From contig CAVNZM010000009.1 in the NCBI GenBank assembly GCA_963693365.1, positions 9,623,076 to 9,687,075 on the forward strand: DNA of 64,000 bases, read 5' to 3'. Of this stretch, positions 802 through 9,128 are shown piece by piece. The DNA is from Amoebidium appalachense. Lineage: Eukaryota > Protista > Ichthyosporea. Numbering within the stretch: the stretch's first letter is position 1; every line of letters starts with the position of its first letter. Position numbers and translations under genes: made by a program. Under the pieces are notes generated by a model that ran no database searches, was not told the DNA's origin, and saw nothing but the letters and a program-made list of their open reading frames with translations.

Positions 802-3437
802 TTAGATGGAGTTTGTTTCGGCCTCCTCTACGAGCTCGAGCAAATCATTATCGTCGGGCTCAATAGTCTGATTCTGGTCGACTCCATTTTCGGCTACTGC
901 AATTGGCTGTTGGGTCGAAAGTGGCGAGTTCTGGGCAGGTGTCTCGGCTGGTGCAGGTGCAGGTGTCGGTACTGGTGACGCTGCCGGGATCGGTGCCGGG
1001 TTGGTCGGGGGTGATGCCGGTGCTGGGTGCTGGGCAGGTTGCACACCCGATTCTGAAGTCGGGAGAGATGTCGGATTGGGCTTCTTCTTCTTGCGCGACA
1101 TAGCATCCAACAAACCGCCAGCAACTAGTGCGTCAGCAGCGGTACTGGTCCCGATGGCAGAGTATCCGAAGACCATTGGCTTGGGCCCCCCTGACAGCTC
1201 AGCTTCTTTGTCCTCCCGTGACCGCTTAGAGCTCGAGTAAGGATCGTCGTCTAGATCGCGGACGCGTTTCTGGCCCTTAAAACTGCCAGGTTTCCAGTAC
1301 TCGAGGATGCTGACACGGATTGCTTCGTTGAACTTCCGTTCACTTGTCATGTTGCCCCATGTTCCATCCGTGTTGGGACCCCCGAAGTCGAAGAAAACCC
1401 CGTCGTCCGACATTGCGAATTTCACGATTCGGTTGACCAGCTGCTTGGCCTCTTCAGAGGGTACACGAAGATCGGACTCGGCCTCTTGAGTCAGAGGCAA
1501 TATTGTCGCGTTTTTCGCCACGACAGCATGATACACTTGGCTGTGTAGCTCAGCGCTTGGCATGCGCTCCTTGGTCACCTTCTCACACAGAGCAGCGTCC
1601 GTGTCGAAACCAATCACACTGTGGCGCTCCATTGCCGCAGCCTCAACCACCGTGCCGGTGCCACAACATAGCGACAGAACGTGCCCGTTTGGGGGGCAGT
1701 AGCGACGGATGAGTGCTCTCTCCATGTTAACAGGTTTCTGCAAAAAAAAACCCGGATTCAGTCCTTAATTATGGTTCAAGCTTAGAAAAAAAGAAGTCAA
1801 GAAAGAAAGGGAATGAAAGACTCAAAGATTCATAAAAACAACTTAAGAAATGGAAAGGATTGACTTTCTTTGAGTTAAAGAGGCAGGAGAGAGAGTTCAA
1901 ATGTCTAGTCTCTGTTAGACAGCCACACATCTAGCTTTGACTCGACCTATTCGATTCTAGTTGAAAATACATATGAAATGACATCATTACACAATTTCGA
2001 ACCCAATTCCAAAATAAATCACAAGTGTCTAGTCTTTGTTAGACATCCACACATCTAGTTTGGACTCGACCTATTCGAATCTAGTTGAAAAATACATATG
2101 AAATGACATCATTACACAATTTCGATCCAAATTCTAAAATAAATCAAACAGTCTGGGGATTGGAAATCACGTGCTAAAATCATGAGAGGTCTAATCACGT
2201 GCTAAAATCATGAGAGGCCCTGTAGGTCAGTGTAGTAGTGACTGTGCACATAAGCAACCCTGCGCGTGCACAAACACAAACACGCACACACACAATACAC
2301 ATATCTGACATGTAACTTTCACGTTGTGCACAGAGAAACACAGACTGTGCATGCCAAACATTCACGTTATGTACAAGGACACACAGACTCAGTCACCGTG
2401 CATGCTAGCAGTCGTGAATAGTGTTTGTGGCTAACTTTGTGTACATGCCCTACACCATAACTGTTGAACAGCTGCAGCAGTGTTCGTGCATGCTAGCAGT
2501 CGTGAATAGTGTTTGTGGCTAACTTTGTGTACATGCCCTACACCATAACTGTTGAACAGCTGCAGCAGTGTAACAGGAAAGCGCCAGTGCCGTGCACGTG
2601 GGTGCACATGAAACAGATCGTGCGCGTGTTTGTGACAGGAGAATAATGGGGCCAGAGAAGAGATAGGGTGGGAGTGGCAGTAGCGCCTGGCGGCCTCGGG
2701 GAGGGGGGGGGGGGGGGGGGGAGAAGCGGGGAGGGGGAGAAGCGGGGAGGGGTGGGGGGGGTTTACCTGTTGGGGGCAAATGATGTTCTTTTCACCATCC
2801 CGCAAGTAATCGATCCCCATTCTCTGCGTAATGTCACCACGCGGGTAATGTGCCTGCGCCAACCAACTTGATTTGTCCTCCTCGGGCTCAGCAAAAAAGA
2901 ACCCGCTTGGTCGGTGATTCTTGTGGGGGGTGATGTGCACAGCGAGGACATAGCGGCCCGGTCCGTCCGGCTTCTTGAGGTGAGTGGTGCTGCTGCCCTT
3001 GGTGGATGGACAATACATGTAGTCGTCCATGGCGTGTCCGAGCTCCGACATCAATAAAACGAATTGCGCGTAGTCGACTGGGCCAAAGAAGGAGGCAACC
3101 AGTACAAATTCGCTGCGGCCGAGCGTCTCGTTCCATTTTTTCAGGCTGTGATGGGATGCAACGAGTGTGTAAGTGGGAAACCACTATGTGTGTGCAACAG
3201 TTAAAATTTCGTGTGTCAGTGTGGAATTGAACCCCACCAATCAACTTCCTGTCGAGCCACAAAGAAAAATGCAATGCCATCATCATGCATCATACATTGG
3301 GGGGGGGGGGGTAGACATGATTAACCCACACACTGGAACAGTCACAACAAAGCAGCCTATAACTTGTAACCTGAAAACAACCCCGGGTAAACCTAACGCT
3401 TACACATTGTCCGGAAGGCCGCAGAATAAAAATGTGT

Positions 3438-3510
<73 letters not shown>

Positions 3511-7891: not shown

Positions 7892-7936
<45 letters not shown>

Positions 7937-9128
7937 CTTGGTTTAGGGGAGAGTTCACACACCTTTTTGACCAATTCCCACTCCGGGTCGTCGAGGGTCA
8001 TCACCTTGATGTGGGGGAAGAGGACGTCATACAGTCTGGCTGGCGGCTCTCTCCCACTCTGCCGCGCTTTATCGACCTTGGATTGGACGTCCCTCCCCAG
8101 GAGCTGAAGATTCTCCCCGATCCATTTTTTTAACCTGAGCAGAGAAAACATGCTACCATAAGTGACCTGTATATGTGTGTTGAGACATTTGGTGCGAACA
8201 ATGACATCCTATGACCTATGTATCCCAATTGTCGAATGGAAATTAGATTTTGTTGTTTGGATTCACATCAGATCGATCTAATGGTGTCAATTGGTCGATT
8301 AGCATAATTTGGGATTCTCAAATTGTTGGGAACCCTTCGATGTCATTTCCAGTGTATACACCTAACCCGCAAAGTCATGCACGTACACATTGTCCCCCCC
8401 CCCCCCCCCCCCCCCCTCAACACACCTACCCACAGAAAGGCAGACACACGTACACGTCAGACACACGTACACGTACACGTAGACATAGAGTTGCTATACG
8501 TGAGGGAGGGAGGGGAACCAGGGTTGAAGGAGATATCAATAGGCGGGGGGGGGGGGGGGGGGAGGGAGGGAGGGGAACCAGGGTTGAAGGAGATATTAAT
8601 AAGGGCGGGGGGGGGGGGGGGGGGGGGGAGGGGGGGGGGGGCAGTCTGCCGAATGAAGGGCTGGTATACAGTTGGAGTGGTGTGTGTGATGGGATGCTAA
8701 GTTGTCTGTGTCTAGGGAGCCTAATTGGGGAATATGGTGTGAGGGGAAGGCTGGGGGGGGGGGGGGGGGGGGGGGGGCAGGAGCTGGCAGGAGGAAATGG
8801 TTCGGGCGCCCGGGAGAGAGAGAGGAGGACATGGTTCGAGAGTTCGGGAGTTCGGGAGAGAGGGGACAAGGGGAGGGGGGGGGGGGGGGGGGGGGCTGTT
8901 TACTTAAGCAATCCCCCATACTTCAAGGCCTTGATGCGCACATACGCGTCCGGACCGAGGGGCTTATTGGGTGGGATGCCGAGCACCTCTTTGATCTTCT
9001 CACGGCCGTTCTCGAGCCGAATAAACATGCTCAGCTCCATGCTCATCGTCTGGATCTTGTTGTGGTGGGCCCCGACTAGGCGCATCTCGTCCTTTGTCAG
9101 GTTGTAGTACACCTGCGCAATCGGGTGC
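802..9128 (-). CDS. Spliced, 5'-truncated gene (about 845 codons visible): ParB/Srx-like segment + helical linker + beta-class N6-adenine/N4-cytosine DNA methyltransferase-like domain + low-complexity tail
   Basis: Hand-spliced GT-AG exons: 9128-8904, 8134-7963, 6644-6438, 5941-5808, 5385-5023, 3962-3843, 3145-2767, 1737-802. The last junction builds [49 protein letters not shown], matching motif X HPTQKP, motif I DPFxGxGT and motif II. The upstream LEGDV...[12 protein letters not shown] sits in the motif IV position. The first exon [18 protein letters not shown] resembles the ParB C-terminal 'dlsdeeal.la..eN'. Two 1-nt frame slips are needed (near 6440-6455 and about 3872), both at or near homopolymers. 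There are no internal stops once these are corrected. Confidence 0.75.
1902..2570. repeat. Intronic tandem duplications (~124 bp x2, ~28 bp x2, ~88 bp x2)
   Basis: tgtctagtc..ttagac starts at 1902 and 2026; aatcacgtgctaaaatcatgagagg occurs twice at about 2165-2217; cgtgcatgctagcagtcg starts at 2397 and 2485. Confidence 0.85.
5541..5720. repeat. (GTGTCCGT)n 8-mer minisatellite grading into (GTGTCTGT)n, intronic
   Basis: Directly visible tandem octamer. Confidence 0.9.
7035..7810 (-). mobile_element. Solo LTR (diverged copy of LTR family B) in an intron of the methyltransferase-like gene
   Basis: Clearly homologous to 44711-45414. It ends ...gaagatgaca at 7810, the left terminus has lost a few bases into a poly-G run, and G runs flank both sides. 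Confidence 0.85.

What the first reader, a model, noticed from the sequence alone, without database searches (positions are those of the whole stretch)
802..9128. Intron-containing ParB-like + beta-class amino-DNA-methyltransferase gene in a eukaryote
Seen: eight GT-AG exons splice into one reading frame with motif order IV...X-I-II, preceded by a segment resembling the end of a ParB/Srx domain. The conserved PQQ|KP motif is split by a 1-kb intron, so the ORF track hides it. Known: this permuted order defines beta-class N6-A/N4-C methyltransferases. ParB-MTase fusions are typical of phages and bacteria, and eukaryotic N4C writers of bacterial origin are known only from a few lineages (bdelloid rotifers, Marchantia). 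Inference: this may be a eukaryote-adapted, possibly transposon-borne 4mC/6mA writer, or a derived reader, coupled to a ParB-type domain. That would be a candidate new epigenetic system.
Basis: partly seen in the sequence, partly recalled or inferred. Interest (0 to 1): 0.82.

Follow-up and report, generated by a model that had tools for sequence, protein, structure and literature searches.

The report
Broken transposon-type DNA methylase-like gene
This is a spliced eukaryotic gene carrying the cofactor-binding half of a bacterial-type DNA methylase; as assembled it lacks its start, has a frameshift and a worn catalytic motif, so it is likely a decayed copy of a transposon accessory gene of a kind already reported in algae, not a new epigenetic writer.

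Summary
The gene is real. It has eight GT-AG exons on the minus strand with coding-type codon bias, and PQQ|KP is split by a 1,029-bp intron. Its SAM-binding half (motifs X-I-II) matches beta-class N6A/N4C methyltransferases. (1) The exons do not give one frame: exon 6 shifts frame at an A4 run and meets TGA. (2) The motif IV candidate reads DAPS, not D/SPPY, and the catalytic half scores no better than shuffles (43 of 80). (3) The ParB likeness of exon 1 is not significant (182 of 1,000 shuffles score as well), and the ParB core exon is absent because a 5'-truncated Copia abuts the gene. One run holds a diverged in-frame copy of exon 6, so the family is likely multi-copy. An open Dada-type transposase lies head-to-head 15 kb away, but shared ends were not found. 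ParB-like + N4C/N6A methyltransferase accessory genes are already described in algal transposons (PMC12477816). Verdict: likely a decayed new member of that kind; interest 0.3.

The parts
8904..9128 (-). Exon 1 of the surviving gene (no start codon); candidate tail of a ParB-like domain, unproven
7963..8134 (-). Exon 2
   Evidence: GC3 0.74
6438..6644 (-). Exon 3
   Evidence: GC3 0.77
5808..5921 (-). Exon 4
5023..5385 (-). Exon 5; holds a candidate motif III strand (model aa 315), placed by eye and by a non-significant alignment
3843..3962 (-). Exon 6; candidate motif IV reading DAPS (model aa 369-372); frameshift at the A4 run 3870-3873 with TGA at 3867-3869
   Evidence: diverged in-frame copy in run X4
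2767..3145 (-). Exon 7; likely rest of the catalytic half and target-recognition loop, ending in PQQ of motif X
   Evidence: low-confidence helix-strand-helix-strand-strand
802..1737 (-). Exon 8; KP of motif X, motif I (SLCCGTG), motif II, then an unassigned region, a basic patch and a Pro/Ala-rich and acidic tail to the stop
9130..12960 (+). 5'-truncated Copia retrotransposon (integrase, RT, RNase H region) abutting exon 1; exact left junction between 9129 and about 9225
24119..31965 (+). Six-exon Dada-type DDE transposase with inserted DEDDy exonuclease, head-to-head with the gene; membership of the same element not shown

Best explanation
This is a spliced gene with the SAM-binding half of a beta-class DNA amino-methyltransferase that, as assembled, has lost its 5' end to a Copia and is frameshifted in exon 6, and it is likely a decayed copy of a multi-copy transposon accessory gene that would join a ParB-like domain to the methyltransferase fold. 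Shown: exon structure, motifs X-I-II, the two lesions, the divergent motifs, a diverged second copy of exon 6 in one run, and a head-to-head transposase 15 kb away. Inferred: permuted order for the whole domain (about 0.85), ParB-like N-terminus (about 0.6), transposon cargo (about 0.65). Likely mechanism of intact relatives, by analogy with Ectocarpus Sola1-1_Ec32: the protein binds its own element's DNA and shields or regulates it against host silencing. Because motif IV here reads DAPS and motif I SLCCGTG, this lineage more likely binds DNA than methylates it. This copy would make no full-length protein.
For: PF01555 hit on exon 8 aa 1-53, E 1.7e-5, 25.3 bits, just under the 26.7 cut-off. 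PHROG DNA-methyltransferase families at 1.9e-10 and 6.3e-9. Best PDB sequence hit 8urk, E 0.001-0.006. A profile of 74 non-redundant phage beta-MTases (from 153) hits model aa 524-590 at 29.5 bits. Motif I lies near the end of the domain with about 200 residues upstream whose register fits motifs III, IV and VII by alignment and whose exon-7 part is predicted helix-strand-helix-strand-strand. Frameshift and TGA. Copia junction with no start codon, and no coding-like minus-strand exon with a ParB core in 12900-24100. Run X4, which holds 0.88 of the words of 802-3150, also has a contig matching 3917-3964 with 4 differences in 48 bases; its 30-letter loose end, read by hand, stays open and rejoins the window sequence after one extra codon. 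Published precedent: a 1,104-aa ParB-like + N4C/N6A MTase gene opposite the transposase of Sola1-1_Ec32 (PMC12477816); PF01555 and ParB-like accessory genes in red-algal Plavaka elements.
Against: The catalytic half does not score above shuffles (not reported against 391 of 500 reported shuffles; 43 of 80 shuffles equal or higher). Exon 1 does not match a phage ParB profile (182 of 1,000 shuffles equal or higher) or any Pfam family and folds alone as two helices with no strand. No eukaryotic relative was retrieved, so homology to the algal proteins is untested. No element ends enclosing the gene were found, nor an evenly spaced palindrome array. The neighbouring transposase is Dada-type, and described Dada elements are 4.7-11 kb, shorter than the 31 kb needed. 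The frameshift sits in a homopolymer in a window with 65 G/C runs of 20 or more, so it may be an assembly error.
Confidence: 0.55

Rival explanations
1. The locus is an intact host gene for an active 4mC or 6mA writer; the frameshift is a homopolymer error and the 5' exons were lost or displaced in assembly.
For: Only one frame lesion in 837 codons, in an A4 run; strong codon bias and clean splice sites; bacterial-type 4mC writers exist in rotifers and Marchantia.
Against: Those enzymes keep SPPY; here the candidate reads DAPS, and a 2011 DNA run is identical to the window over 3925-4015, which includes that motif. The 5' end runs into a Copia that has itself lost its 5' part.
Confidence: 0.1
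2. The gene, or its intact paralogues, encodes a working pseudo-enzyme: a catalytically dead methyltransferase fold kept as a DNA or modified-base binder for the host.
For: Both catalytic-type motifs are altered while the frame, codon bias and motif X-I-II core are kept. The X4 copy varies in frame just after motif IV, which suggests selection on the protein. Inactive N6A-MTase domains are known in DIRS1 elements (PMC4738411).
Against: No orthologue or synteny data; this copy is broken as assembled; the repeat-rich setting fits a mobile gene as well as a host gene.
Confidence: 0.15
3. The gene is cargo of the neighbouring Dada-type element, which spans about 31 kb with nested insertions.
For: Head-to-head orientation as in Sola1-1_Ec32; the transposase splices to an open frame of 1,522-1,560 codons; Dada has no terminal inverted repeats, so their absence is expected; giant algal elements carry nested insertions.
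Against: 15 kb of unrelated-looking sequence lies between the genes; no split small-RNA target or matched ends found; described Dada elements are at most 11 kb.
Confidence: 0.2
4. Only the SAM-binding segment is methyltransferase-derived; the upstream exons belong to another fold and the protein is neither beta-class nor ParB-linked.
For: No significant match for exons 1-7 in Pfam, PHROGs or NCBIfam or in local profiles; weak hits of exon 8 to small-molecule and protein methyltransferases.
Against: The best hits are consistently DNA amino-methyltransferases and include the motif X H/P-x-x-KP signature; a SAM-binding half needs a catalytic half, and it can only lie upstream or in the unassigned stretch downstream.
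Confidence: 0.1

Closest known systems
ParB-like + N4C/N6A methyltransferase accessory protein of Ectocarpus Sola1-1_Ec32 (PMC12477816; passages and supplement table rows read)
   Same: Eukaryotic gene with a prokaryote-type amino-methyltransferase domain at a similar scale (1,104 aa there; 837 aa surviving here), on the strand opposite a DDE transposase, in a region with nested insertions.
   Different: Here ParB is unproven, the copy is broken, motif IV is degenerate, the nearby transposase is Dada-type and shared ends were not found. Sequence homology was not tested: the paper's FASTA supplements cannot be read.
Plavaka accessory genes PAG2 and PAG3 of Bostrychia (bioRxiv 10.1101/2025.02.11.637652; passages read)
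   Same: PF01555 and ParB-like domains carried as transposon accessory genes that move between transposon superfamilies.
   Different: There the two domains are in separate proteins (PF01555+SET; ParB+2OG oxygenase) and PAG3 has an adjacent inverted-repeat array; no such array was found here.
Phage ParB-N6_N4_Mtase fusions (PMC12704722, passages read; 50 of 80 ParB loci fetched were fused to a DPPY domain)
   Same: Same inferred domain order; motif X-I similarity.
   Different: No introns, about 410 aa, intact DPPY; no significant match to exon 1.
Bdelloid N4CMT and Marchantia DN4MT1 (PMC8885841, PMC10406627, bioRxiv 10.1101/2021.02.12.428880; passages read)
   Same: Beta-class enzymes of bacterial origin in eukaryotic genomes; N4CMT also has introns.
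   Different: They keep SPPY, are shown to be active host enzymes and have no ParB domain in the passages read.
Dada DNA transposons (PMC3706591, PMC8869645; passages read), for the neighbouring transposase
   Same: DDE triad with a DEDDy exonuclease between the second D and a DxxH motif, introns, no terminal inverted repeats.
   Different: No small-RNA target gene found at either side; 'methyltransferase' occurs in neither paper's main text.

Membership tests
Beta-class N6A/N4C DNA methyltransferase (PF01555) | SAM-binding motifs X-I-II toward the C-terminal end of the domain | tested here: met
   Pfam score 25.3 bits is below the 26.7 cut-off because only profile positions 166-218 lie in exon 8
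Beta-class N6A/N4C DNA methyltransferase (PF01555) | Catalytic motif IV D/S-P-P-Y/F | tested here: not met
   Candidate reads DAPS; no D/SPP-aromatic motif in the gene's frames; reference motifs
Beta-class N6A/N4C DNA methyltransferase (PF01555) | Permuted order, catalytic half upstream of SAM-binding half | tested here: inconclusive
   Register fits but 43 of 80 shuffles score as well; exon 7 model pLDDT 39, no fold hit
Beta-class N6A/N4C DNA methyltransferase (PF01555) | Complete open reading frame | tested here: not met
   Frameshift with TGA in exon 6 and no start codon, as assembled
Beta-class N6A/N4C DNA methyltransferase (PF01555) | Methyl transfer to A-N6 or C-N4 in DNA | not testable with these tools
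   needs biochemistry
ParB/Srx fold | Profile or fold match, including the Box II nucleotide-binding motif | tested here: inconclusive
   Only a possible tail is present; Pfam, PHROGs, NCBIfam no hit; 182 of 1,000 shuffles equal or higher against a phage ParB profile; isolated exon folds as helices
Transposon accessory ParB-methyltransferase (Sola1-1_Ec32 type) | Gene on the strand opposite a DDE transposase | tested here: met
   Head-to-head with a transposase starting at 24119, 15 kb away
Transposon accessory ParB-methyltransferase (Sola1-1_Ec32 type) | Both genes inside one pair of element ends | tested here: inconclusive
   No inverted-repeat pair above shuffles in 5 of 5 region pairs; left end may lie outside the window
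Transposon accessory ParB-methyltransferase (Sola1-1_Ec32 type) | Multi-copy family | tested here: inconclusive
   One diverged contig in 1 of 4 runs laid; no second copy in the window; no whole genome held
Transposon accessory ParB-methyltransferase (Sola1-1_Ec32 type) | Sequence homology to the described algal proteins | not testable with these tools
   Supplementary FASTA files unreadable; searches returned no eukaryotic relative
Dada superfamily (neighbouring transposase) | DDE triad with DEDDy exonuclease between second D and DxxH | tested here: met
   D415, D498, exonuclease (PF01612 E 5.5e-15; WRN/EXD2 hits), DAFH at 906, E near 1058 in the spliced model; residues assigned by motif position, not by alignment to Dada sequences; layout as
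Dada superfamily (neighbouring transposase) | Insertion in a small RNA gene with 6-7 bp duplication | tested here: inconclusive
   No tRNA or snRNA gene or paired target motif found; short gene halves could be missed

The most novel reading that the evidence does not exclude
A giant (about 31 kb) Dada-type transposon carries, head-to-head with an open transposase, a spliced ParB-like + methyltransferase-fold gene whose lineage has traded the catalytic motif for a DNA-binding role. It would be the first accessory gene reported for Dada in the papers I searched, and a case of a bacterial methylase turned into a pseudo-enzyme guarding its own element.
Probability: 0.15. Interest if true: 0.55.

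Novelty: new member of a known kind. Interest (0 to 1): 0.3.

Why it matters
Transposon-borne ParB-methyltransferase genes are described from algae but untested, so a further, highly divergent eukaryotic lineage widens their range and shows that the catalytic motif can be lost. As it stands this copy is broken and offers no direct test. Its value is as a probe to find intact paralogues, and to ask whether Dada elements also carry such cargo.

Tried and rejected
Protein searches gave no relative: 716 candidates, none at E<=0.001 (exon 8 aa 1-170); 17 candidates (exon 1) and 216 candidates (exon 8 aa 1-79), none at E<=10. The 2 phmmer hits for exon 7 are Ig-repeat proteins with scores summed over repeats and were rejected. 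ESM Atlas: no usable hit for exon 7; best score 0.83 to PF01555 clusters for exon 8, a lead only. Viral contigs: 11 and 2 pattern matches, none confirmed. Metagenome contigs: 6 of 598 stretches with matches of 15-36 residues, not examined further. Exon 1 against phages (9 records, E 2-10) and plasmids (none). Exon 5 against PDB: only E>=0.76. Single-sequence folds: exon 7 pLDDT 39, Foldseek 0 of 500 matches at E<=0.001, VIA best Z 5.7 among 48,161 chains with no methyltransferase in the 50 rows; exon 1 two helices, not fold-searched. Sequencing runs: no RNA holder listed. Of 4 runs laid on 3810-4015, X9 and X10 gave no contig and none covered the frameshift, so it is unchecked; no junction was tested with reads. 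No element ends, palindrome array or small-RNA target. No upstream exons with a ParB core; one EGHHT at about 15860 is in a weak frame and taken as chance (the codon model was trained on the gene itself). I first took the neighbouring transposase for Sola1 from recall; no paper supported that and the layout fits Dada. Paper searches for prior description: 0 papers; 0 papers. Iyer, Abhiman and Aravind 2011 was not read; it is known only from the reference list. Passages of PMC11244446, PMC12695648 and PMC12344493 added nothing on this gene type.
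Full report
Observation. The exons show coding-type GC by codon position (GC3 0.50-0.81, GC2 0.31-0.55 in the 8 segments measured); the 7 introns do not. The surroundings are eukaryotic: Copia elements, a tyrosine-recombinase-type retroelement and a Myb/SANT exon. I did not determine the organism.

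The frame is not single. Exons 1-5 and the first 31 codons of exon 6 read open, then reach TGA at 3867-3869 directly after a run of four A's. The last 29 bases of exon 6 and exons 7-8 read open in another frame. Enumerating AG acceptors and GT/GC donors shows that an open frame keeping the DAP motif needs weak donors and loses the helix after it. Read through with X, the model is 837 residues without a start codon. Upstream of exon 1 the sequence passes into a Copia that begins near its integrase and has no paired LTR in the window. No coding-like upstream exon with a ParB core was found in 12900-24100. Reads did not cover the frameshift, and the window is rich in long homopolymers (65 G/C runs of 20 or more), so an assembly error remains possible for that lesion. 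The missing 5' end is a separate defect.

Methyltransferase domain. Exon 8 residues 1-53 match PF01555 positions 166-218 (E 1.7e-5, 25.3 bits, cut-off 26.7), PHROG DNA-methyltransferase families (1.9e-10, 6.3e-9), PDB 8urk and 612 phage records whose top rows are mostly annotated DNA methylases at 32-42% identity. A profile of 74 non-redundant phage beta-MTases, selected from 153 by motif pattern, hits model residues 524-590 at 29.5 bits. The catalytic half is another matter. Profile alignment places a motif III-like strand at residue 315 and the DAP segment near the D/SPPY column, but 43 of 80 shuffles score as well, and an HMM of that half reports nothing. A profile of 38 phage ParB-MTase fusions aligns across exon 7 (probability 87.5), with confidence concentrated at motifs X-I. 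A single-sequence model of exon 7 has the helix-strand-helix-strand-strand order expected from general knowledge of the class but pLDDT 39, and fold searches found nothing. The permuted order is therefore likely, not shown. The candidate motif IV reads DAPS and motif I SLCCGTG, where active eukaryotic and bacterial enzymes have SPPY or DPPY (PMC10406627, PMC8885841, bioRxiv 10.1101/2021.02.12.428880; passages). Run X1 is identical to the window over 3925-4015, which includes the DAPS codons, so that motif is not an assembly error.

ParB. Exon 1 hits no Pfam, PHROG or NCBIfam family. Against a profile of 49 phage ParB domains it scores -1.1 bits, matched or beaten by 182 of 1,000 shuffles. Folded alone it gives two helices. 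Only a short tail of the domain could be present, so this neither supports nor excludes ParB. My impression that exons 1-3 and 6-8 resemble a eukaryotic ParB-methyltransferase family is recalled and comes from no call.

Copies and context. No relative was retrieved from the protein collections. Run X4 holds 0.88 of the words of 802-3150 and also has a contig matching 3917-3964 with 4 differences in 48 bases. Its loose end, read by hand, continues the motif-IV frame without a stop and rejoins the window sequence after one extra codon. This is one contig in 1 of 4 runs laid; it supports exon 6 as coding in that frame and suggests a second, diverged copy. Fifteen kb away, head-to-head, lies a six-exon transposase (DUF6729 E 2.7e-18, exonuclease E 5.5e-15) that splices to an open frame of 1,522-1,560 codons, with GC donors at two introns and intron 2 boundaries unsettled (88 of 6,048 boundary combinations open). 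Its layout, a DEDDy exonuclease between the second D and a DxxH motif, is that described for Dada elements of Laccaria and Ectocarpus, which lack terminal inverted repeats and are 4.7-11 kb (PMC3706591, passages). No shared ends, palindrome array or small-RNA target was found, so whether the two genes belong to one element is open.

What is known. [quoted passage not shown] The Bostrychia preprint (passages) reports PF01555 and ParB-like accessory genes that move among transposon superfamilies. ParB-N6N4 fusions are common in phages (PMC12704722, passages). PMC4738411 (section 8 and passages) lists repeated transfers of such enzymes to eukaryotes and inactive domains in DIRS1 elements. The Ectocarpus FASTA supplements could not be read and would allow the direct homology test; bioRxiv supplements were not seen. 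Earlier scan notes led me to the Ectocarpus, Bostrychia and Dada papers; I read the passages myself and do not count the notes as support.

Verdict. It works, or worked, most likely like a transposon accessory ParB-methyltransferase (0.55). It fails membership of active beta-class enzymes on motif IV and on frame. It is a new, divergent and broken member of a described kind; interest 0.3. The boldest reading left open is a giant Dada element carrying a pseudo-enzyme version (0.15).

Noticed in passing
window 24119-31965 (+): Apparently open six-exon Dada-type transposase with inserted DEDDy exonuclease and two GC-AG introns; no small-RNA target found at its sides.
   Followed up: partly
window 22956-23410: A 24-bp inverted repeat (22956-22979 / 23096-23119) and a 33-bp direct repeat (23006-23038 / 23378-23410) about 1 kb upstream of the transposase; possible sub-terminal or promoter elements.
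   Followed up: no
window 9130-12960 (+): 5'-truncated Copia with an insertion of roughly 940 bp (about 10600-11540) splitting the reverse transcriptase; no paired LTR.
   Followed up: partly
window 7035-7810; 41091-41827; 43174-43881; 44711-45414: A 700-790 bp dispersed repeat: one copy in intron 2 of the gene and three more, 80-98% alike, in both orientations.
   Followed up: no
window 51357-56782 (+): Tyrosine-recombinase-type retroelement: RT (PF00078), integrase-like ORFs and split direct repeats of 349 bp and 91 bp, the layout recalled for Ngaro elements.
   Followed up: partly
window 48654-50424 and 57690-59314: Two tandem arrays with units of about 147 bp and 183 bp; the first gives a spurious 344-codon repetitive ORF.
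   Followed up: no
window 45950-48300 (-): Second, unrelated Copia remnant with frameshifts.
   Followed up: no
window 42299-42940 (-): Exon with a Myb/SANT domain (PF00249, E 2.7e-12), probably part of a host gene.
   Followed up: no
window 37922-38584 (+): 220-codon ORF that resembles paired AP2-type domains by recall; no Pfam hit.
   Followed up: partly
window 15799-16146 (-), 14732-14979 (-), 17050-19700 (+): Unassigned ORF or exon fragments between the Copia and the transposase; no family hit for those scanned.
   Followed up: partly
window 1898-2146 and 2397-2571: Two short tandem duplications (125 bp and 87 bp) inside intron 7.
   Followed up: no
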